The translations under genes were made by a program, and so were the position numbers. A stretch of 64,000 nt of DNA from Candidatus Pacearchaeota archaeon (GTDB lineage: Archaea; Nanobdellota; Nanobdellia; Pacearchaeales; GW2011-AR1), in the NCBI GenBank assembly GCA_050124795.1, contig JASFEO010000002.1, positions 36,754 to 100,753 of the forward strand, written 5' to 3'. Below are positions 6,509 through 55,541 of the stretch, piece by piece. The notes beneath the pieces were generated by a model. That model had not been told where the DNA came from. It worked only from the letters and a program-made list of their open reading frames with translations, and ran no database searches. The stretch's first letter is position 1. The number at the start of each line of letters is the position of its first letter.

Positions 6509-7162
6509 ATGAAAACAAACAAACCTCTTGTTAAGCGAGTTGAACTTGTGACAATTGAAGGTCATGATGAAATATCTGATGTCCTATATAGAGAAGAAAA
6601 TGCAACTTACAGACTATATGACAATTTAACTAAACCAATGACTTTGCCTGAACTCTCAAAATATTCTGCAAAAGAAAAAGAAAAAGGAAATCCTTATGTT
6701 CCTAATTCTGAAGAATTGTGGAGTGTCTTTACTGCAATTGCAAATTCAGAAAACCCTGAACTTATTTCAAGAGTTAGAGATGAATTAAGAGGCAAATGGA
6801 TAAGAACATTAACTGCAATTGACTGGTATTCAAATAGAAATTCAAGAGTTATTCATAATGTCAAAACTCCAGATGCTTATTTTAAACAAAGAAAAGTACT
6901 CGGTGAAGATGGGTTTATCCATCAAGTTAAATCTAAAAAACTTCTTGAAAATGTTCTTGGAACAAATAATGTGAAGAAGATCAATAGTGTTTCTCAAAAA
7001 ATAAATCAAACTCCAATGTATCAATGGAGAATAAATTCTAAACCTGATAAAAAACTTAGAACAAGTGTGGAGCTCTACGCGGGTTCCGGCAGGTTGTTCC
7101 TGGATTGCGGCGGGGATCCCTTGGATGAGTGTCCTGCTTTCCGGGTATTAAGAGTTGATTAA
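6509..7162 (+). CDS. DGR target protein with C-terminal variable region
   Basis: 217 aa; codons 186-213 (7064-7147) match TR 7478-7561 except at TR adenines; ends ..PAFRVLRVD like CLec-type VR ends. Confidence 0.9.
   Translation: MKTNKPLVKRVELVTIEGHDEISDVLYREENATYRLYDNLTKPMTLPELSKYSAKEKEKGNPYVPNSEELWSVFTAIANSENPELISRVRDELRGKWIRTLTAIDWYSNRNSRVIHNVKTPDAYFKQRKVLGEDGFIHQVKSKKLLENVLGTNNVKKINSVSQKINQTPMYQWRINSKPDKKLRTSVELYAGSGRLFLDCGGDPLDECPAFRVLRVD
7064..7147 (+). repeat. DGR variable repeat (VR)
   Basis: 69/84 identical to TR; 12 A>G and 3 A>T relative to TR. Confidence 0.93.
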
Positions 7163-7212
7163 GTCTGACTGCATTGCTCGCTAGACATTGTTGAACCTAA
7201 CTCTTTATTTTG

Positions 7213-7225
7213 TCGCGAAGCGCGA
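7213..7225. other. Short GC-rich hairpin downstream of VR (candidate DGR cis-acting stem-loop)
   Basis: TCGCGAAGCGCGA: CGC-GAA-GCG mini-hairpin or TCGCG-AAG-CGCGA, about 50 nt after target stop. Confidence 0.55.
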
Positions 7226-7477
7226 AAAATTTTTAAGAGACGCTTTCTTAATCTTTTTGCCCAGAAGAGTTTTTTCGTTTGAGAAGCGAGAGAACTTAAT
7301 GGACTACACGCCGGTTAATCAGCGCATTATTAAGGTTTATTTTAAGCCATGAAATTCAACAGCGACAATTAGTAGCAATAAAAGTGAAAATCTGAAGTTG
7401 TGGTGCTTCCCTTGAAATCTCTTCATGGATTTCATTTGCCAGAAGATCTCTTTTAGAGAAGATTAATTGGCTATAAA

Positions 7478-7561
7478 AGTGTGGAGCTCAACGCGAATTC
7501 CGACAGGTTGAACCTGAATTGCAACAGGAATCCCTTGAATGAGTATCCTGCTTTCCGAATA
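7478..7561 (+). repeat. DGR template repeat (TR)
   Basis: Intergenic; 24 adenines, seven AAY codons in VR frame; all 60 non-A positions identical to VR. Confidence 0.93.
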
Positions 7562-8399: not shown

Positions 8400-9503
8400 A
8401 TGGAAGAGATTTACCAAAGAGAGGAAAGTTTTATTTCTGCTCAATCATCTGAATTAAAAGATATTGATAGGGAACTTGCAGAGTTATTAAAAAAGCAAAC
8501 AGCAAAAATAAAAGTTATTGGCTGCGGAGGCGGAGGAGGAAATTCACTCTCGCGAATGAGAGAAATTGGAATTAAAGGAGGAGAATTAATTGCAATTAAT
8601 ACAGATGCTCAGGATTTACTTTATGCAAATGCAGACCAGAAAATTTTAATTGGAAAAGAATTAACTCAGGGATTAGGTGCAGGAAGCAATCCAAAAATCG
8701 GGCAAGAAGCTGCAAAAGAGTCTGAGTCAGAAATAAAAAAGAAAATTGCAAATTCAGATATGATTTTCATAACCTGCGGATTTGGAGGAGGAACCGGAAC
8801 TGGTTCTGCACCGGAAGTCGCAAAACTCGCAAAAAAACAAGGAGCACTAACTATTGGCGTCGTGACTTTGCCGTTCACAATTGAAGGAAGAAAAAGAATT
8901 GAAAATGCAATGGACGGACTCGAAAGAATGGAATCAGTTGTTGACACCTTAATTGTAATTCCAAATGATAAACTTCTGGAACTAGCGCCAGACTTGCCCT
9001 TGCACACAGCTTTTAAAATTGCCGACGAAATTCTAACAAACGCAGTAAAAGGAATAACTGAACTTGTAACAACTTCTGGTTTAGTGAATTTGGATTTTGC
9101 AGATGTAAAAGCAGTAATGGTTGGCGGAGGAGTTTCATTAATCGGAATGGGTGAATCAGATACAGAACAAAGAGCAATTGACGCAGTTGAAAAAGCAATA
9201 CAAAATCCCTTGCTTGACGTCGACATTTCAAACGCAACTGGTTCATTAGTAAATATAATCGGCGGACCAAACATGAGTTTAGATGAATGCAAAGCAATAA
9301 TCGAGCACATCGGTGAAAGGCTTTCTCCAGATGCAAAATTAATCTGGGGAGCGCAAATCGCAGAAGACATGGAAAAGTCAATCAGAGTTTTATTAATTGT
9401 AACCGGTGTGAAATCCTCGCAAATTTTAGGTCACGGAGAATCAATTGACAACATAAAACACAAAGAAATCGAAGAAGAATTGGGAATAGAGTTTTATGAA
9501 TAA
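8400..9503 (+). CDS. ftsZ: Cell division protein FtsZ
   Basis: GCGGGGGN, NTDAQDL, GGGTGTG tubulin signature, VNLDFADV. Confidence 0.98.
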   Translation: MEEIYQREESFISAQSSELKDIDRELAELLKKQTAKIKVIGCGGGGGNSLSRMREIGIKGGELIAINTDAQDLLYANADQKILIGKELTQGLGAGSNPKIGQEAAKESESEIKKKIANSDMIFITCGFGGGTGTGSAPEVAKLAKKQGALTIGVVTLPFTIEGRKRIENAMDGLERMESVVDTLIVIPNDKLLELAPDLPLHTAFKIADEILTNAVKGITELVTTSGLVNLDFADVKAVMVGGGVSLIGMGESDTEQRAIDAVEKAIQNPLLDVDISNATGSLVNIIGGPNMSLDECKAIIEHIGERLSPDAKLIWGAQIAEDMEKSIRVLLIVTGVKSSQILGHGESIDNIKHKEIEEELGIEFYE

Positions 9504-11399: not shown

Positions 11400-11432
11400 A
11401 ATGAAAAATCAACTAATTAAATACTGGAAACC

Positions 11433-11530
11433 TCATCTTGTGCGATTTTCGGCGGAGGCAATTAAAAAAATCGCTTCACCGGAACAAGAAGGGAGATTCC
11501 AAAGAACCGCTTAGGTTCTTTTGATATGCA
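11433..11530 (+). repeat. Dispersed element family B, copy 1 (abuts rpl11 start)
   Basis: 90/98 identical to 55407-55504; stems GCGATTTT/AAAATCGC and AAAGAACC-GCTTA-GGTTCTTT. Confidence 0.9.
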
Positions 11531-41495: not shown

Positions 41496-41915
41496 TTATA
41501 AAATATCCCTTGCTCTTCTTTCTGATTTCCTTAATGCTTTTATATGTTCAGCATTTGTTATTGCTTCTTTACAAGCCCCCCCATAACCTTCTAAAAAATC
41601 TTTTTCATTCTTAGGAGATATCCCTTTTGAATCTATGAGGGTATAACCCTTTTTACCAGAAACTTTTTGATTATATGTCTCTTCCGCGGATAAAACAATT
41701 TCAAGACTTTTAGGGTCAACTAATTTTTCCAACCCCCTTCCAAATTCAAGCCCGAGTATAAAAGATCCCAAAGAGCGACCTTCATATTCCATAGTTCCTT
41801 CTTTGAGAAGGGGCGATTTACAGCAATAAGTATGCTTTGTTTTAAAAAATCTCTTAATTCCTCCCGGAACATAAGTTTTCTTAAACAGCAAAACCTGATT
41901 ATCTTTTAATTCCAT
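41496..41915 (-). CDS. Hypothetical protein, paralog of 42758-43159
   Basis: MELKDNQVLL, CKSPL, LEIVLS, GISxxxxxxFLxGY shared. Confidence 0.7.
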   Translation of the reverse strand: MELKDNQVLLFKKTYVPGGIKRFFKTKHTYCCKSPLLKEGTMEYEGRSLGSFILGLEFGRGLEKLVDPKSLEIVLSAEETYNQKVSGKKGYTLIDSKGISPKNEKDFLEGYGGACKEAITNAEHIKALRKSERRARDIL

Positions 41916-42000
41916 TTTCTATCTTTCTAAAAAGTATCTCGCCTTTTTTAATATTATTATTCTGTGAAATATATTTTCGAAGTTAATTATCAATTAATCC

Positions 42001-42483
42001 TTAAATTTCTTTTCTATTTTTATAATATGGAGAATCTGAAGGAAAGGCTTTAATCTTCTTAGTGTCAGGTTTAGTAGCTTTTGATTTGTTAGTAATCACC
42101 CCCGTAGGAACAGGAGTTATTTTATTTAATTTTTTTCTTTCAGGAACTCTTAATCTCATTCTTCGATCTCTTTTCCAAAATCTTTCCTTTAAGTTATTCT
42201 CTAAATTTTCTATTTTCTCTTTTTCATTTTTCCCATCTGCATAGGCAGTTATTTTTTCTCTGTCTCTTGGAAAATTTCCCAATCCCGGATTAAATTCATA
42301 CAGGACACTGCAATCCAAAAGGTGATAGGTAACACTCCCTCCAATATAGCGCAATCTATTTGCTTCATTTTTCCCATTCACATATCCGTCTTTATTAAGT
42401 TCATGAAAAACTTCCAAAACTTTCCATGGATACAAAAAATCATTATCTGTTAATGAATCCTGCTCGTGAATTATTTTAGGCAT
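42001..42483 (-). CDS. Hypothetical protein
   Basis: 160-aa ORF, TAAAATG coupling. Confidence 0.55.
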   Translation of the reverse strand: MPKIIHEQDSLTDNDFLYPWKVLEVFHELNKDGYVNGKNEANRLRYIGGSVTYHLLDCSVLYEFNPGLGNFPRDREKITAYADGKNEKEKIENLENNLKERFWKRDRRMRLRVPERKKLNKITPVPTGVITNKSKATKPDTKKIKAFPSDSPYYKNRKEI

Positions 42484-42484
42484 T

Positions 42485-42754
42485 TTATTTTTGCCAAGGC
42501 AATTCTCCTTTTAGATAAGCCTCGCGATAATCTTTATGATTTAACCTTTGAGGGTTATATTTTTTAATATATTCTTCTGCATCTTTATAATCCTTAGAAT
42601 AATCTCCAATGAAATTTCCATCTTCATCCCAATCAGTATTATGAGTAGCAATAATTAATTGTCCATTTTTCATGACAACTCTTTTTATTGCCCTCTCAAC
42701 CATTGCTTCTCCGCATGAAACAAAATAATTATCACTTGATTCTTCAATTGTCAT
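42485..42754 (-). CDS. Hypothetical protein
   Basis: 89-aa ORF. Confidence 0.55.
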   Translation of the reverse strand: MTIEESSDNYFVSCGEAMVERAIKRVVMKNGQLIIATHNTDWDEDGNFIGDYSKDYKDAEEYIKKYNPQRLNHKDYREAYLKGELPWQK

Positions 42755-42757
42755 TTT

Positions 42758-43159
42758 CTATTTTTTTCTTTTAAAATTTTGAAATTGTTGATCATAAAAT
42801 GCTTCATAACCTCTTAAAAAATTTCTTTGCTCTCTAAATGAAATTCCACTTGAAATTATATGGCGAAATTCTTTTTTATCATTCGAAAGAAGACTTCCAT
42901 TATATTCAATATCTCCTGACAAAACAATTTCAAGATCTCTCGGTTCAATTAATTCAATCTTCTCGTCTTTTAATTTTCCTCCAAACATTTCCCCAAGATA
43001 AAAAAGATCATTTAATGGATGACGAGTAGAGATCATGCCTGATAAAGGAGACTTGCAAAAATAAAAAGGAGAATCTTTTCTTGGAAGCATTCTCTTAAAA
43101 AAATTCCGATAAATTAATATATTTTTTATCAACAAAACCTGATTATCTTTTAATTCCAT
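42758..43159 (-). CDS. Hypothetical protein, paralog of 41496-41915
   Basis: Start MELKDNQ at 43159, 1 nt after metG stop. Confidence 0.7.
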   Translation of the reverse strand: MELKDNQVLLIKNILIYRNFFKRMLPRKDSPFYFCKSPLSGMISTRHPLNDLFYLGEMFGGKLKDEKIELIEPRDLEIVLSGDIEYNGSLLSNDKKEFRHIISSGISFREQRNFLRGYEAFYDQQFQNFKRKK

Positions 43160-43160
43160 T

Positions 43161-44633
43161 TTATATTTTCTTAAAAAGGATTTCACCTTTTTTAATTTTA
43201 TTGTGTTCAAGAAGTGGTTTTTTTATTTCATTCCAACTGATTTTAAATCCAAACTGCTCTGCTATTTTCTCACTTGTCGACGGAATAAAAGGGGAAAGTA
43301 AAATTGCAATAGACTTTATCATATTAGCGACTTCATATAAAATTTTTTTGTTTTTGGTCTCCCAAGGCTTTGTTGATTGAATATATTCATTACAAATATC
43401 TATCTCTTCAAATAAAAAGTTTAATGCTCTGTCAAATTGAAAACTATCCATAACTCCCTCAATCTTTTTATTTAGAATGGTGGATGCATAAAGAATAGAT
43501 TGGTCATCGTTTTTTCCTAATTTTTCCATTCCATTCTTCTCAACAAGTCCACTAACTCGCGAAACTAAATTTCCTAATTTATTTGCAAGTTCATTATTGT
43601 GCCTGTCAATCAAAGCCTCTTTTGAGAAATCCCCGTCAGAACCAAATGGAATTGTCCTCATTAAATAATATCTTAAAGTATCTGCTTCATATTCCTCCAA
43701 AAGTTCTAAGGGAGCCACGACATTTCCAACAGACTTTGACATTTTCCTTCCATTAACAGTTAAAAAACCATGTACAATTAATTCTTTAGGCAAAGGTAAA
43801 CCAAGACTCAAAAGCATTCCTGTCCAAATTCCTGCATGGAACCTGTGCATATCTTTTCCTGCAACGTGAACATCACATGGCCAATATTTTTTGTATTTTT
43901 TATCAGGATATCCTATTCCTGTCAGGTAATTTCCAAGAGCCTCGCACCACACATACATAACCTGGTTATCGTCGCCAGGAACAGGAATACCCCAAGGCAA
44001 ATGCTTTTTCTCTCTTGAAAAACTCACATCAGTCAACCCTTCCTTAGCCAAACCAAGAAAATCATTTTTCCATTGCTTTGGATAAATCTTATACTGATCT
44101 TCTTCAATTATTTTTTTAATCTCTTCAGAATACTTGCTTAATTTAAAAAAATAATTCTCCTCTGAAATCTTTTGAATTTCTAAACTTGGGTGGTCAGGAC
44201 ATTTTTCATCCACAAGGTCTTTTTCTGTAACAAATCTCTCGCAACCAGAACAATAAAAACCAGTATACTTTTTTTTATAGATGTCACCTTTTTCTGCTAA
44301 CTTCTTCCAGATATCTAGAACCCCTGGCCAATGCATTTTTTTATCTGTTGTCCTAATAAAAAAAGTATTGGAAATATTCAACTTCTTTGTTAGTTCCTGA
44401 AAATATCCTGAATTCATATCAACAAATTCCTTTGGTTCCATTCCAAGTTTTTTAGCAGTCTGATAATTCTTAGTTCCATGTTCATCTGTTCCTGTTAAAA
44501 AAAATACATCCTTCCCTTTAAGCTTGTTCCATCTTGCAAGAATATCTGCAGTAATTATTTCCAATGCAAAACCAATGTGCGGAGGCGCATTTGCATAAGG
44601 AATTGTCGTTGTAATGTAAAACTTTTTTTTCAT
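43161..44633 (-). CDS. metG: Methionine--tRNA ligase
   Basis: FYITTTIPYAN.PHIG, TGTDEHG, KMSKS. Confidence 0.96.
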   Translation of the reverse strand: MKKKFYITTTIPYANAPPHIGFALEIITADILARWNKLKGKDVFFLTGTDEHGTKNYQTAKKLGMEPKEFVDMNSGYFQELTKKLNISNTFFIRTTDKKMHWPGVLDIWKKLAEKGDIYKKKYTGFYCSGCERFVTEKDLVDEKCPDHPSLEIQKISEENYFFKLSKYSEEIKKIIEEDQYKIYPKQWKNDFLGLAKEGLTDVSFSREKKHLPWGIPVPGDDNQVMYVWCEALGNYLTGIGYPDKKYKKYWPCDVHVAGKDMHRFHAGIWTGMLLSLGLPLPKELIVHGFLTVNGRKMSKSVGNVVAPLELLEEYEADTLRYYLMRTIPFGSDGDFSKEALIDRHNNELANKLGNLVSRVSGLVEKNGMEKLGKNDDQSILYASTILNKKIEGVMDSFQFDRALNFLFEEIDICNEYIQSTKPWETKNKKILYEVANMIKSIAILLSPFIPSTSEKIAEQFGFKISWNEIKKPLLEHNKIKKGEILFKKI

Positions 44634-52547: not shown

Positions 52548-55406
52548 ATGACCTTTATAAAAAAATTAGTGATGCATGGTTTCAAAAGTTTTGCAAGAAA
52601 AACAGAACTCCCATTTACCCCCGGAATCAATGTTATCCTTGGACCAAATGGTTCAGGAAAAAGTAATGTTTCAGATGCTCTGTGTTTTGTCCTCGGTAGA
52701 TTAAGCATAAAATCAATGCGCGCAGCAAAAGCAAAAAATTTAATTTTCCTTGGAACAAAAGTTGCAGCACCATCAAAAGAAGCTTCTGTTGAAATTGTTT
52801 TTGATAATTCTTCAAATAGTTTCACAATAGAAGAAAAAGATGTTTCAATAAAAAGAATTGTAAGGCGCAACGGCCAAAGCATTTACAAAATAAATAATCA
52901 AACAAAAACACGCCAGGAAGTTTTAAGTTTATTAGCTCAGGCAGGAATTGACCCAAATGGTTTTAACATAATCCTGCAGGGAGAAATCCAGAACTTTGTA
53001 AAAATGATGCCAGAGGAGCGAAGAAAAGTAATTGAAGAAGTCGCAGGAATTTCAATTTATGAATCACGAAAAGAAAAATCATTAAAAGAATTAAATAAAA
53101 CTGAGGAGAGATTAAAAGAAGTCAATGCGATTCTTAGAGAGAGAACTGCTTATTTAAATAATTTAGAAAAAGAAAGACAGCAGGCATTAAGATTTAAAAA
53201 AATTGAAGAAGATATAAAAAAATTCAAGGCAAGTATTATTTTTCAGAATTTAAAATTAAAGAAAAAAGATTTGGAAGTTATCGGGGGAAATATTAATAAA
53301 AAAAATAATGAAAAAGAAAAAATAAAAACAGGCATAAAAAATTTAGAAAAGAAAATATTTGAGAACAATTCAAAAGTCGATTCAATCAACCAGACTATAA
53401 AAAAGCAAACAGGATATGAACAGGAAAAATTAAATCAGGAAATCGCCAACTTAAGAGCAGAACTTGCAGGCTTAAATGTGAATTTATCAAACCTTGAAAA
53501 TAAATTATCTTCTATAAAAAAGGAAAGAGAAGAATCAAAAAATTCAATTGAAGAAAATGAAATTTCAATTAGGGAACTAAAAAAAGAATCCCCGACTTTG
53601 GCAAAAAAAGAAAAAGAGGTGGAGGCAAAAAAACAAAGACTTGAAGAACTTGAAAAAATCAGAAAAAAGTTTTACATGACAAAGTCTGAATTAAAATCTT
53701 TAAGAGACAGAATTAGTGATAAAAAAACTCTTCTTCAAAATTACACAGATGAATCAGATTTTTTAATTAAACAAATTGAAAAAATTTCTCTTGAGTTGTT
53801 TGACAAAAAAACAAACAAGGAAAAACTTGAAGACTTAAAATTTTCATTAAAAGAAAAAAAAGAATTATTAGAAGAACTCAGGCGCGAAGAAATTAATTTA
53901 GAAAAAACTTCTTCAACAAATGAATATGAAATTGACAAGCAAAAAAAATTAATCGACACTGTTTCAAAAATGGATATTTGTCCCGTGTGCAAAAATAAAA
54001 TCACAAACCAACATGTTCATTCAATAAATAAAGAAACAAATGAAAAAATTTCCTCATTAAATAATGAAATAAAAAACTCTGATTCAAAACTAAATTTAAT
54101 CTACCAAAAAAAAGATATTCTCGATAAAGATATTGAAAGTTTAACTTCTGAAATTCAAAAAAGAGAATCTGATCTCATGAACTTATTAAATATTAATGAG
54201 AAAAAAAATCAAATTAAATCTTTGCATGAAAAAATTAATATCGCAAAAGAAGAATTAACAGAACTTGAAAAAATCGAGAAAAAATTAAAAACTAATTTTG
54301 ATGAAAATTCAAATATTGAAACAAAATATGAAACACTTGCAGTTGAAGTCCAGGAAGTCTCTTTGCGGACAAAAGAAAATTTAAATTCAGAAGTTTCATT
54401 TAAAGAGCGCGAACTTGAGCGAGCAAAAATTTCTCTAAAAGAACTTGCAAGAAATTATGAGGATTTTTCTGAAGAGTTAAAGGAAGTAAAAAAGAAATTA
54501 GAAGAAAAAGAAAAATCATTAAAATCAAAAAAAGAAAAAGAAGAAAAACTTTCCATGGAGTTTCAAAAATTAATTAGTGAGCGGGATTCTTATTCAAAAG
54601 AAGCCAGAGAAATTGAATTAAAAATTTCAGGCCAGAATAATTTAATCTATAATATTGAACAGGAAATTAATAACATGAAAATTGAAAATGCAAGAGTCTC
54701 AGCAGAAATTGAAAACTTTGAAACTGAAATGCTCGGGTTTCCAAATATTGAAATAATAAAACAAAATAAAAATATTTTATCTGAAAGGTTGGCAAAGGCG
54801 CAGGAAATAAGCTCCAGAATTGGTTCAGTAAATATGCGTTCTCTCGAAGTTTATGACTCAGTAAAAAAAGAGTATGACACAATAAGCGAGAAAGTCGAAA
54901 TAATTGAAAAAGAAAAATTAGGAATTTTAAAAATCATAAATGAAATTAATATTAAGAAAAAGAAAACTTTTTTGAAAACCTTAACAGAACTTGATGAAAT
55001 TTTTTCAAGAAACTTTTCCCAATTAAATGCAAAAGGAGTTGTGTCTTTAGAACTTGAAAACAGAAAAAGCCCATTCGACGACGGAGTAAACATAATTGTA
55101 AAAACAGGACATGGAAAATATTTTGATGTTAAAAGTCTTTCAGGAGGAGAACAAACTTTAGTTGCGCTATCCTTAATTTTTGCAATACAGGAATTAAAAC
55201 CATATTACTTTTATATTTTAGATGAAATCGACGCAGCACTTGACAAAAGAAACTCAAGTCGCCTTGCAGACTTACTAAAAAAATACATGCAAAAAGGACA
55301 ATACATTGTAATCAGCCATAACGACGAAGTAATCGGAAATGCAACAAATCTTTATGGAATTAGTATGCATGATGGTGTCTCGAAAACCGTAAGCCTTAAA
55401 GTTTAA
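52548..55406 (+). CDS. smc: SMC-family chromosome segregation ATPase with central CxxC
   Basis: GFKSF, GPNGSGKSN, LSGGE, LDEIDAALD; long coiled coils; CPVC at aa 478-481. Confidence 0.88.
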   Translation: MTFIKKLVMHGFKSFARKTELPFTPGINVILGPNGSGKSNVSDALCFVLGRLSIKSMRAAKAKNLIFLGTKVAAPSKEASVEIVFDNSSNSFTIEEKDVSIKRIVRRNGQSIYKINNQTKTRQEVLSLLAQAGIDPNGFNIILQGEIQNFVKMMPEERRKVIEEVAGISIYESRKEKSLKELNKTEERLKEVNAILRERTAYLNNLEKERQQALRFKKIEEDIKKFKASIIFQNLKLKKKDLEVIGGNINKKNNEKEKIKTGIKNLEKKIFENNSKVDSINQTIKKQTGYEQEKLNQEIANLRAELAGLNVNLSNLENKLSSIKKEREESKNSIEENEISIRELKKESPTLAKKEKEVEAKKQRLEELEKIRKKFYMTKSELKSLRDRISDKKTLLQNYTDESDFLIKQIEKISLELFDKKTNKEKLEDLKFSLKEKKELLEELRREEINLEKTSSTNEYEIDKQKKLIDTVSKMDICPVCKNKITNQHVHSINKETNEKISSLNNEIKNSDSKLNLIYQKKDILDKDIESLTSEIQKRESDLMNLLNINEKKNQIKSLHEKINIAKEELTELEKIEKKLKTNFDENSNIETKYETLAVEVQEVSLRTKENLNSEVSFKERELERAKISLKELARNYEDFSEELKEVKKKLEEKEKSLKSKKEKEEKLSMEFQKLISERDSYSKEAREIELKISGQNNLIYNIEQEINNMKIENARVSAEIENFETEMLGFPNIEIIKQNKNILSERLAKAQEISSRIGSVNMRSLEVYDSVKKEYDTISEKVEIIEKEKLGILKIINEINIKKKKTFLKTLTELDEIFSRNFSQLNAKGVVSLELENRKSPFDDGVNIIVKTGHGKYFDVKSLSGGEQTLVALSLIFAIQELKPYYFYILDEIDAALDKRNSSRLADLLKKYMQKGQYIVISHNDEVIGNATNLYGISMHDGVSKTVSLKV

Positions 55407-55504
55407 TCATGCTGTGCGATTTTCGGCGGAGGCAATTGAAAAAATCGCTTCGCAGGGACAGGAAGGGAGATTCTAAAGAACCGCTTAGGTTCTTTTGATA
55501 TGCA
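55407..55504 (+). repeat. Dispersed element family B, copy 2
   Basis: 90/98 identical to 11433-11530. Confidence 0.9.
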
Positions 55505-55541
55505 TGACGGAGTTAGTAAAACTGTTAGTCTTAAGGTTTAA
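55500..55541 (+). repeat. Second, synonymous copy of smc 3' end (MHDGVSKTVSLKV*)
   Basis: Same 13 aa + TAA as 55365-55406; 8 codons differ, all synonymous. Confidence 0.9.

What the first reader, a model, noticed from the sequence alone, without database searches (positions are those of the whole stretch)
55365..55541. smc 3' end encoded twice with purely synonymous recoding around element B
Seen: 55365-55406 ATG CAT GAT GGT GTC TCG AAA ACC GTA AGC CTT AAA GTT TAA and 55500-55541 ATG CAT GAC GGA GTT AGT AAA ACT GTT AGT CTT AAG GTT TAA both encode MHDGVSKTVSLKV*. Ten nucleotide differences in 8 codons are all silent, including TCG vs AGT serine. Element B fills the gap. Inference: both ends evolved under protein selection, so one arrived from a diverged lineage or on an element that integrates at TATGCATGA and supplies a replacement C-terminus, as gene-restoring integrative elements do, but here the whole insert is only 135 bp with no integrase.
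Basis: partly seen in the sequence, partly recalled or inferred. Interest (0 to 1): 0.85.

Follow-up and report, generated by a model that had tools for sequence, protein, structure and literature searches.

The report
Doubled smc gene end around insert
The last 13 codons of the chromosome-organising gene smc are written twice around a small inserted hairpin element, and the same odd arrangement recurs in many related tiny archaea, so it marks a repeatedly used insertion spot rather than an accident.

Summary
The same 14 codons recur at 55500-55541 with 10 differences, all silent. A 93-nt element lies between the copies.

It is neither an artefact nor unique. A second assembler's contig from the probable source run spans the region without change. 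A second tail downstream of smc occurs in 9 of 80 metagenome relatives, in 25 of 274 tail-bearing genomes of the same order, and in 15 of 80 species genomes titled Pacearchaeota, Woesearchaeota or Nanoarchaeota.

The inserts vary: window-type structured elements, single-copy 24-34-nt hairpins, and gene cargo (Fic, toxin-antitoxin-like). Nearly all join exactly at ATGCAYGA. Arrays of three tails exist.

The downstream tail resembles the single tail of close relatives, and it alone carries disabling changes. The upstream tail is the outlier. In one sister pair the mismatch rate jumps 3.4-fold exactly at the tail.

Best reading (about 0.5): a cassette of replacement tail plus element was joined at ATGCAYGA, and the native tail was pushed downstream. 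This resembles att repeats of gene-restoring integrated elements, but is miniature and lacks an integrase.

Main rival (about 0.25): both tails are expressed. In one genus the downstream tail has changed only silently since two species split.

The parts
52548..55406 (+). smc ORF (952 codons plus stop), ending in tail 1
   Evidence: ORF list; translation shows Walker A at the N-terminus and ...LYGISMHDGVSKTVSLKV* at the end. Relatives are 76-89% identical over the last 201 aa.
55365..55406 (+). Tail 1: in-frame last 13 codons plus TAA, the functional end. It uses codons that are rare in this genome. Read as the copy that came with the insert.
   Evidence: Codon usage: sum of log relative use is -16.4 against -10.9 for tail 2 (GTC 0.09, TCG 0.05, ACC 0.07, AGC 0.10). 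In relatives tail 1 is the outlier.
55365..55375 (+). S1: conserved join core ATGCATGATGG (ATGCAT is a palindrome). GCATGAT (55367-55373) is an inverted repeat of ATCATGC at 55406-55412.
   Evidence: The join falls at this ATG in nearly all duplicated loci. The inverted repeat changes in step in L040 and L085 (GCACGAT with ATCGTGC). The S1:S2 hairpin appears in the minimum-energy fold.
55407..55499 (+). Element B: a 93-nt copy of a multi-copy structured element. Hairpin P1 is 55416-55423 with 55441-55448, with GGAGG in its loop. Hairpin P2 is 55475-55482 with 55488-55495, followed by TTTTGAT.
   Evidence: 92% identical to copy A. Covariance-model hit at 55405-55499, 92.9 bits. P1 shows compensatory changes. 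No Rfam family matches.
55500..55541 (+). Tail 2: displaced second copy of the 13 codons plus TAA. It starts at an ATG that abuts the element's 3' end, as real genes do at other copies. It uses common codons. Read as the resident native end.
   Evidence: In relatives tail 2 matches the single tail of the closest species, and only tail 2 or tail 3 carry disabling changes.
11431..11525 (+). Element A: sister copy of element B. It ends directly at the ATG of ribosomal protein L11 (11526-12152). Its 3' junction GATATGCA shares TATGCA with the smc join.
   Evidence: An element also precedes L11 in another genus (L238).

Best explanation
The window holds one instance of a recurrent structure in Pacearchaeota-type DPANN archaea. 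DNA is inserted exactly at the ATG of the 13th-from-last codon of smc (core ATGCAYGA). The inserted unit is a replacement tail (13 codons plus stop) followed by a small GC-rich hairpin element, here a 93-nt member of a multi-copy family that usually abuts start codons. Tail 1 (55365-55406) now ends smc. The resident tail (55500-55541) was pushed downstream and is no longer part of the gene.

The two tails act like the attL and attR direct repeats of a gene-restoring integrated element. They also serve as conserved homology arms: the smc body on the left and the tail on the right. These arms would let the insert pass between related genomes by recombination.

The differences are purely silent because both tails spent nearly all their history as working smc ends, in different genomes of one genus-level gene pool. 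In that pool the peptide is fixed while silent sites are saturated.

Shown: recurrence, the join site, which copy is native, decay of downstream copies, cargo and stacking.
Inferred: horizontal arrival of tail 1, and the joining mechanism. The join could be short-homology recombination or a recombinase supplied in trans; two tyrosine recombinase genes lie elsewhere in the genome.
For: 1. Recurrence. A second tail is present in 9 of 80 metagenome relatives. It is present in 25 of the 274 genomes that hold the tail pattern, out of 401 searched; the reversed-pattern control gave 0 in every row shown. It is present in 15 of 80 species genomes. Duplicated loci are scattered over the smc tree (quick tree).

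2. Join site. In the loci printed tail 2 starts at ATGCAYGA whatever the insert. Exceptions are G119 (33 nt further upstream), G355 (11 nt further in) and two truncated remnants.

3. Tail 2 is native.
- L058: tail 2 is 2 nt from sister L055 and tail 1 is 8 nt from it.
- L037 against L031: tail 2 differs at 6 and tail 1 at 10.
- L085 against L053: upstream mismatches run at 3.1 per 30 nt right up to the tail, then tail 1 differs at 15 of 42 (both Ser codons switch family) and tail 2 at 8 of 42.
- In the window, tail 2 uses common codons and tail 1 rare ones.

4. Only downstream copies decay. Examples are G4 changed to D, R, C or S, loss of the ATG, and an early stop.

5. Stacking and cargo. G142 reads tail, 29 nt, tail, a 578-nt toxin-antitoxin-like pair, then a tail without ATG. 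G299 has three tails. G119 carries a Fic gene between tails.

6. Silent recoding needs no special process. Three species of genus g17 encode the same unusual peptide MQEGLSKVISLKI with 9-13 silent differences, including Ser family switches.

7. Repeat length. The 42-nt tail lies within the 29-69 bp (median 45) reported for archaeal att sites. 14 of 68 thaumarchaeal integrated elements sit in 3'-distal parts of protein genes (passages of PMC6563490).
Against: 1. 10 of 32 duplicated loci have tails with 0-3 differences. In L017 the repeat runs 32 nt beyond the tail. At least some events therefore duplicate the resident tail.

2. G063 and G140 are two species of one genus. Their smc bodies differ silently at 46 of 100 codons. 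Tail 1 against tail 1 differs at 7 of 14 codons, and tail 2 against tail 2 at 8 of 14. None of these changes an amino acid, and the insert is 30 of 31 identical. This looks like vertical inheritance with tail 2 under coding constraint. My reading requires separate or repeated acquisitions.

3. No integrase, no free or circular form and no empty-site contig was found. The short inserts are single copy in 5 of 5 genomes. Tails 66-76 bp apart are too close for easy looping by known recombinases (recalled, not tested).

4. Across 22 diverged pairs, tail 1 is farther from single tails than tail 2 in only 10. The distances are equal in 6 and reversed in 6.

5. Inserts followed by an unrecognisable tail are rare: about 5 of 149 single-tail loci, judged by eye. 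A pure-relic reading would predict more of them.
Confidence: 0.5

Rival explanations
1. Tail, hairpin and tail form a functional module, and both tails are translated in the same cells. At other copies the element's 3' end abuts real start codons, so the ATG of tail 2 would start a 13-codon mini-ORF. The mini-ORF could be reached by element-driven initiation or by re-initiation after the tail-1 stop. Its product, or the act of translating it up to the native stop and the next gene's start, is under selection.
For: - G063 against G140: tail 2 differs at 8 of 14 codons, all silently, at the same rate as the smc body, and the insert is 30 of 31 identical.
- 8 of 22 diverged pairs have identical peptides despite 6-13 nucleotide differences. 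Overall, 146 codon differences are silent and 24 change an amino acid.
- The G154 insert is 29 of 31 identical to that of another genus, although the flanking smc differs at 9 of 24 nt.
- The short insert is single copy and found only at this locus in 5 of 5 genomes.
- 17 of 29 window-type elements end exactly at the ATG of a real ORF.
- In G299, L058, L093 and G286 the last tail keeps the native stop/start overlap with the next gene.
- Few inserts are followed by a fully decayed tail.
Against: - Roughly a quarter of downstream tails carry disabling changes: loss of the invariant Gly, loss of ATG, or an early stop.
- In the window no + strand gene follows tail 2.
- G355 has partial tail copies without ATG that also differ only silently.
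- No role is known for a free copy of the last strand of the SMC head.
- No RNA data could be obtained.
- My pattern search can only find tails that still look coding, which inflates apparent conservation.
Confidence: 0.25
2. The duplication is purely local, with no horizontal arrival. Replication slippage or template switching at the TATGCA/ATGCAT microhomology copies an element from elsewhere in the genome (copy A ends GATATGCA) into smc and duplicates the resident tail. The tails then diverge in place.
For: - Identical or nearly identical pairs in 10 of 32 loci.
- Tandem arrays with identical units in G299 and G250, and overlapping repeats of period 34 in G355.
- The 3' junction of copy A shares TATGCA with the smc join, and B is 92% identical to A.
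- In L017 the repeat extends into the element.
Against: - In-place divergence with a neutral tail 2 would give mostly amino-acid-changing differences. 10 random changes kept the peptide in 0 of 300,000 trials.
- L085 tail 1 differs from its sister's tail 3.4 times more than the adjacent gene body does. In-place drift cannot produce this.
- The short inserts have no other copy in the genome to serve as a template.
Confidence: 0.12
3. RNA-level removal or skipping. Tail 1 plus the element would be an archaeal bulge-helix-bulge intron, or a gap bypassed by the ribosome, so that tail 2 becomes the end of part of the SMC made.
For: This would explain constraint on both tails. The inserts are GC-rich hairpins in AT-rich genomes. 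The palindromes UGCA and CAUG in the core could form the 4-bp central helix that such an intron needs (reading).
Against: Checked by hand at the two registers with palindromic 4-mers, in the window and in G063: neither the outer nor the inner helix forms. No common fold appears across 10 loci. Start-to-start spacings are in frame in only some loci (66, 69, 72 and 135 are; 70, 71, 73, 74 and 76 are not). Bypassing would leave part of one tail unconstrained.
Confidence: 0.04
4. Assembly artefact: two strains' smc ends were collapsed into one contig.
For: The genome is a metagenome bin with 4% contamination.
Against: A second assembler gives one contig across the region with 0 differences and even depth. 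The shared word is only 9 nt. The same layout is seen in dozens of unrelated assemblies.
Confidence: 0.01

Closest known systems
Integrated mobile elements of archaea inserted in the 3'-distal part of protein-coding genes (tyrosine-recombinase att sites)
   Same: Direct repeats that include the gene's end flank the insert. The insert-side copy restores the reading frame with its own stop. The repeat length (42 nt) lies within the reported 29-69 bp. Tandem or stacked insertions occur at one site. Cargo is typical of small mobile islands, here Fic and toxin-antitoxin-like pairs (passages of PMC6563490).
   Different: No integrase lies in or next to any insert. Inserts are 24-1,051 nt, never a plasmid or provirus, across 274 plus 80 genomes. 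The repeats are often recoded at silent sites rather than identical. The commonest insert is a single-copy hairpin of about 30 nt. No excised form was seen.
Islands that integrate in a gene and replace its end, such as the dusA-specific integrase islands
   Same: The element supplies a replacement for the gene end it displaces, so the gene stays intact (abstract of PMC4482086 as listed; details recalled).
   Different: Those islands target the 5' end, are kilobases long and carry their own integrase.
Small GC-rich hairpin insertions in AT-rich genomes: mitochondrial GC clusters and translational bypass elements (recalled, not read here)
   Same: GC-rich hairpins of 27-55 nt inserted in or next to coding sequence of AT-rich genomes, flanked by matching codons.
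   Different: Here 14 whole codons including a stop are repeated, so no bypass is needed. Both copies look constrained. The short insert is single copy.
Cis-acting leader RNAs or repeat elements at gene starts (for element B itself)
   Same: Conserved two-hairpin structure with compensatory changes. Multi-copy, 1-24 per genome. The 3' end abuts the start codon of housekeeping genes in 17 of 29 copies. The same genes (L11, TBP, RFC) carry it in different genera.
   Different: It is in no Rfam family. Its distribution is patchy, in 43 of 151 genera. Copies within a genome are more alike than copies between genomes. At smc it precedes only a 13-codon ORF.

Membership tests
Integrated element with att repeats at a gene's 3' end | Direct repeats that include the gene end flank the insert, and the upstream copy keeps the gene intact | tested here: met
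Integrated element with att repeats at a gene's 3' end | Repeat length typical of archaeal att sites | tested here: met
   The repeat is 42 nt. The reported range is 29-69 bp with median 45 (passage of PMC6563490).
Integrated element with att repeats at a gene's 3' end | Integrase or recombinase gene within or beside the insert | tested here: not met
   The 93-nt insert holds no ORF. No neighbouring ORF matches an integrase. The two PF00589 genes lie on other contigs. No insert longer than 1.1 kb occurs in any relative.
Integrated element with att repeats at a gene's 3' end | Empty site in close relatives | tested here: inconclusive
   Met for other loci (L085 against L053, L058 against L055, L037 against L031, L018 against L020). 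For the window, the nearest relative L017 is also occupied, and the genus has no other species in the collection.
Integrated element with att repeats at a gene's 3' end | Excision product or circular form | not testable with these tools
   Only Logan contigs of one run were available; they show no joint.
MITE-like transposable element | Many copies per genome | tested here: met
   Window-type element: 3 copies here, and 1-24 copies in 43 of 151 genomes. Not met for the short inserts, which are single copy in 5 of 5 genomes.
MITE-like transposable element | Terminal inverted repeats and a short target duplication at each copy | tested here: not met
   Only 2 of 23 copies at gene starts have a flanking shared word beyond shuffled controls.
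Archaeal bulge-helix-bulge intron | Two 3-nt bulges separated by a 4-bp helix, with flanking helices, formed by the two junctions | tested here: not met
   Checked by hand on the window and G063 at the registers with palindromic 4-mers; no flanking helices form. Minimum-energy folds of 10 loci show no common junction fold. No program dedicated to this motif was run.
Diversity-generating retroelement variable/template repeat pair | Differences confined to adenines of one copy | tested here: not met
   Of the 10 differences, 2 have A in tail 2 and 2 have A in tail 1.
Structured cis-acting RNA (element B) | Conserved secondary structure with compensatory changes | tested here: met
   P1 is paired in 94.9% of cells, and 5 of 8 pairs show changes on both sides. 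The covariation score is 0.159 against 0.101 in shuffles, reached by 0 of 500 shuffles. The alignment was fitted to the model, which favours it. The P2 register was poorly set.
Structured cis-acting RNA (element B) | Membership of a described Rfam family | tested here: not met
   No hit at the gathering threshold or at E up to 10 on copies A, B and C.

The most novel reading that the evidence does not exclude
Tail, hairpin and tail form a conserved, selected module of smc in Pacearchaeota-type archaea. The second tail would be translated as a 13-residue copy of the last strand of the SMC head, or swapped in as an alternative gene end. It would be kept by purifying selection over speciation time together with a single-copy hairpin of about 30 nt. 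That would be a gene ending encoded twice on purpose, with no known parallel.
Probability: 0.25. Interest if true: 0.85.

Novelty: new variant of a known kind. Interest (0 to 1): 0.62.

Why it matters
If the main reading holds, the end of an essential, universally conserved gene serves as a portable landing pad. The duplicated tail and the gene body give any inserted DNA two conserved homology arms. Small cargo such as hairpin elements, toxin-antitoxin pairs and Fic could then move between species of reduced-genome archaea without carrying an integrase. That would be a simple and so far undescribed route of gene flow in DPANN archaea, and a practical marker for finding their mobile DNA.

If the rival holds, a 13-codon copy of a protein's end is kept by selection, which would need a new function.

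Either way the work uncovers two element families that match no Rfam family (window-type) and that four library searches did not find described. One is a multi-copy structured element that abuts the start codons of L11, TBP, EF-2, RFC and other core genes. The other is a single-copy hairpin specific to smc.

Tried and rejected
Tried without result:
- Rfam on the window and on copies A, B and C: nothing for the element.
- Sequencing runs: one DNA run, the probable source, and no RNA holder listed.
- Laying that run: contigs only, no joint and no empty-site form. Two low-depth 151-nt contigs of relatives could not be read further.
One search was sent in the same turn and returned a format error.
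- Four paper searches found nothing on this structure: bulge-helix-bulge with DPANN; Pacearchaeota with repeat element; archaeal integrated elements with attachment site; DPANN with integrase and target site. Only passages of PMC6563490 were read. Its supplementary table S2 of integration sites was not opened and could bear on att lengths. Other papers were seen only as listings.

Considered and rejected, or left without support:
- Adenine-specific mutagenesis by the nearby diversity-generating retroelement: the differences are not at adenines.
- Read-through or a frame link between the tails: spacings are in frame in only some loci.
- IS200/IS605-type hairpin elements: there is no conserved flanking tetranucleotide, and copies sit at start codons (reading).
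- Canonical integron attC ends: not present (reading).
- An ORF running through the element: its frame differs between copies (reading).
- GC3 of tail 1 against tail 2 across 22 pairs: no trend, Wilcoxon p = 0.39.
- Nearest-neighbour distances: only a weak tendency for tail 1 to be the outlier, 10 against 6 with 6 ties.
- Larger inserts: none beyond 1.1 kb within up to 10 kb of flank in 80 loci.
- A possible tail remnant 1.3 kb downstream in L053 was left unresolved.

Limits on the numbers:
- One search used a wrong spacer length and returned only noise. One search corrected it.
- The tree is the quick tree, because the careful search did not finish.
- The first alignment used wrong coordinates for L009 and was redone.
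- The set of 32 duplicated loci was fetched on purpose, so 32 of 127 is not a frequency.
- The tail pattern only finds copies that still look coding.
Full report
**1. The observation**

Its last 13 codons and TAA (55365-55406) recur at 55500-55541. The two copies differ at 10 nucleotides in 8 codons, including TCG versus AGT, and none of the differences changes the peptide MHDGVSKTVSLKV*. TATGCATGA stands at both junctions.

Chance does not explain this. 10 random substitutions kept the peptide and stop in 0 of 300,000 trials.

A Logan contig of 16.7 kb from run X1 crosses the whole stretch with no difference and even depth. X1 is probably the source sample, so the data are the same but the assembler is different. 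The contigs show no joined or empty form, but contigs drop rare variants.

In this genome no other gene end is re-encoded downstream, apart from a tandem gene family on another contig.

**2. The element between the copies**

The 93 nt at 55407-55499 has two further copies in this 1.06-Mb genome.
- Copy A lies at window 11431-11525. It is 92% identical to B and ends exactly at the ATG of ribosomal protein L11.
- Copy C lies on another contig. It carries a 60-nt internal insert and ends at the ATG of a rhodanese-like ORF.

A covariance model built from ten copies finds the family in 43 of 151 genomes of the family, one genome per genus, with 1 to 24 copies each.

In 17 of the 29 best copies, the 3' end (...GGTTGTTTTCAA) abuts the ATG of an ORF of at least 40 codons. 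By my reading of the N-termini these ORFs are L11, L24e, EF-2, TBP (twice), RFC (twice), SRP54 and DNA ligase.

Helix P1 is paired in 94.9% of cells, and 5 of 8 pairs show changes on both sides. The covariation score exceeds all 500 shuffles (the alignment was fitted to the model). P1 carries GGAGG in its loop, and the 16S rRNA of this genome ends ...GGATCACCTCCTAA. No Rfam family matches. Flanking direct repeats are the exception, found in 2 of 23 copies.

Element B is therefore a member of a structured family that normally sits as a leader directly in front of start codons. At smc it sits in front of the ATG of tail 2.

**3. The doubled tail is recurrent**

I searched metagenome contigs with the last 201 residues of SMC. 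This gave 80 loci at 76-89% identity. 9 of them carry a full second tail after the stop: L017, L018, L033, L037, L058, L064, L083, L085 and L093. Two more carry truncated remnants.

A degenerate pattern of the tail was run on 401 genomes of the order. It hit 274 of them, and the reversed-pattern control gave 0 in every row shown. 24 genomes have two or three hits on one strand, and in one more the two hits lie on contigs that abut. That makes 25 of 274.

Among 80 species genomes titled Candidatus Pacearchaeota, Woesearchaeota or Nanoarchaeota, 15 have at least two tails. The duplicated loci are scattered over the smc tree (quick tree).

**4. What lies between the tails**

(a) Window-type elements, found in the window, L017, L018, L033, G080, G220, G237, G268, G408 and G430.

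(b) A second type ending ...CTTCGCATA, sometimes in tandem arrays (L058, L093, G122, G250, L019).

(c) Hairpins of 24-34 nt, the commonest kind. Their 5' end is CATGAC or TGCATGGAC and their 3' end is CCGTCGT. The inner stem changes by compensation: AAACG/CGTTT in G286 and AAAGC/GCTTT in G135. This hairpin is single copy, present only at smc, in 5 of 5 genomes tested. It is 29 of 31 identical between two genera whose flanking smc differs at 9 of 24 nt.

(d) Genes. G119 carries a Fic gene in a 1,051-nt insert. G142 carries a PBECR2/DUF4258 plus DUF2283 pair between its second and third tails.

Three tails occur in G142, G299 and G355. No two tails are more than 1.1 kb apart, and no insert holds an integrase. 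The own genome has two tyrosine recombinase genes, both on other contigs.

In nearly all loci the downstream copy starts exactly at ATGCAYGA. The exceptions are G119 (33 nt further upstream), G355 (11 nt further in) and the truncated remnants.

**5. Which copy is native**

Where a close relative with a single tail is available, tail 2 is the closer copy.
- L058: tail 2 differs from sister L055 at 2 nt, tail 1 at 8.
- L037: tail 2 differs from L031 at 6 nt, tail 1 at 10.
- L085: its gene body differs from sister L053 by 3.1 mismatches per 30 nt right up to the tail. Tail 1 then differs at 15 of 42, with both Ser codons switched between families. Tail 2 differs at 8.

In the window, tail 2 uses common codons and tail 1 uses rare ones. 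Changes that would disable SMC occur only in downstream copies. These are loss of the invariant Gly, loss of the ATG, and an early stop. In several loci the last tail keeps the native overlap of its stop with the next gene's start.

Across all 22 diverged pairs the outlier status of tail 1 is only a weak trend.

**6. Why the differences are silent**

Three species of one genus (G016, G228, G369) encode the same unusual peptide MQEGLSKVISLKI with 9-13 silent differences, including Ser family switches. The peptide is therefore fixed at genus level while silent sites are saturated between species. A tail that evolved as a working smc end in a related genome would then look 'purely synonymously recoded' next to the resident one.

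Over 22 diverged pairs, 146 codon differences are silent and 24 change an amino acid.

**7. What does not fit a simple arrival-and-relic story**

- 10 of 32 duplicated loci have tails with 0-3 differences. In L017 the repeat runs 32 nt into the element. Tandem arrays have identical units. At least some events therefore copy the resident tail.
- In genus g60 both species carry the structure. The gene bodies differ silently at 46 of 100 codons. Tail 1 against tail 1 differs at 7 of 14 codons and tail 2 against tail 2 at 8 of 14, with no amino-acid change in either. The insert is 30 of 31 identical. This looks like vertical descent with tail 2 under coding constraint.
- Inserts followed by an unrecognisable tail are rare, about 5 of 149 single-tail loci by eye.
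- My searches find only tails that still look coding, which inflates the apparent constraint. This bias cannot, however, create 8 silent changes with no replacement change.

**8. Reading**

I take the structure to be the product of insertion at a hot spot: the ATGCAYGA core, 13 codons before the smc stop. The unit brought in is a working tail followed by a small hairpin element or cargo, and the resident tail is displaced. This matches the logic and the repeat length of integrated elements in the 3'-distal parts of archaeal protein genes (passages of PMC6563490). It differs in having no integrase and in its miniature size.

Because the smc body and the tail are conserved across species while the downstream neighbourhood is not, the doubled tail gives the insert two portable homology arms. 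Transfer into a genome with a single tail would be resolved at the conserved core and would leave that genome's own tail as tail 2. This step is inference.

The first duplication may arise locally, at the TATGCA or ATG microhomology shared by the element's 3' flank and the Met codon.

I give this reading about 0.5. The main rival, that both tails are expressed and the module is selected, gets about 0.25 on the strength and of the conservation of the single-copy hairpin. Local duplication alone, RNA-level removal and artefact get the remainder.

**9. Novelty**

The kind of event is known: a gene-restoring insertion with direct repeats of a gene end. The form found here did not turn up in four library searches. 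What distinguishes it is its miniature size, the lack of an integrase, its recurrence in roughly a tenth to a fifth of species of an archaeal order, the silently recoded repeats, and a single-copy conserved hairpin.

Noticed in passing
window 7063-7557 (repeats at 7063-7143 and 7477-7557; RT-16 RNA at 7261-7479; ORF 8400-9503): A diversity-generating retroelement. Two 81-nt repeats are 84% identical, and every difference is an A in the second copy, so the second copy is the template repeat and the first the variable repeat. An Rfam RT-16 RNA hit (84 bits) lies between them, and a 367-codon ORF lies downstream.
   Followed up: partly
window 11431-11525; G000:C23:8649-8738 (L003): Sister copies of element B end exactly at the start codons of L11 and of a rhodanese-like gene. 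Copy C carries a 60-nt internal module that recurs in the smc insert of L085.
   Followed up: yes
L233-L262: The window-type element precedes the same core genes in different genera: L11 in G000 and G154, TBP in G186 and G008, RFC in G213 and G225, and an MGILD... protein in G005, G303 and G316. Many copies are preceded by a conserved AT-rich block starting AAAATGAAAAAT.
   Followed up: partly
relatives, just after the smc stop: In many single-tail relatives the smc stop abuts or overlaps the start of a protein-L-isoaspartate methyltransferase gene (TAAAATG). The repeated tail contains Asp-Gly, a dipeptide prone to isoaspartate formation (recalled). This may be coincidence.
   Followed up: no
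L085, L033, L136 (G154), just after tail 2: HicB-like antitoxin genes begin shortly after the downstream tail in three unrelated loci. Two of them share a promoter-like AAAAACTTATATA.
   Followed up: no
L019 (from 3106 to the contig end); L139 (G250): Tandem arrays of the second insert type follow smc, with a period of about 50 nt in L019 and tail plus 44 nt in G250. They run into a contig end or an assembly gap.
   Followed up: partly
L198, L208: Two contigs with this archaeal smc are titled Bacillota bacterium and Parcubacteria group bacterium. They are probably mis-binned.
   Followed up: no
window 41670-43202: Direct repeats of 56-81 nt, 71-85% identical and about 1.24 kb apart, suggest two adjacent paralogous genes.
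   Followed up: no
G000 genome-wide: Only 150 of 746 long ORFs have a Shine-Dalgarno-like word upstream, although the 16S rRNA ends in CCUCC. Upstream regions are A/T-rich up to the ATG, which suggests mostly leaderless or Shine-Dalgarno-independent initiation.
   Followed up: partly
G000:C8:32971-35509: A tandem family of genes shares identical N- and C-terminal dodecapeptides (MKKLTQAEIDAK..., ...ADLSGVKKGDNA).
   Followed up: no
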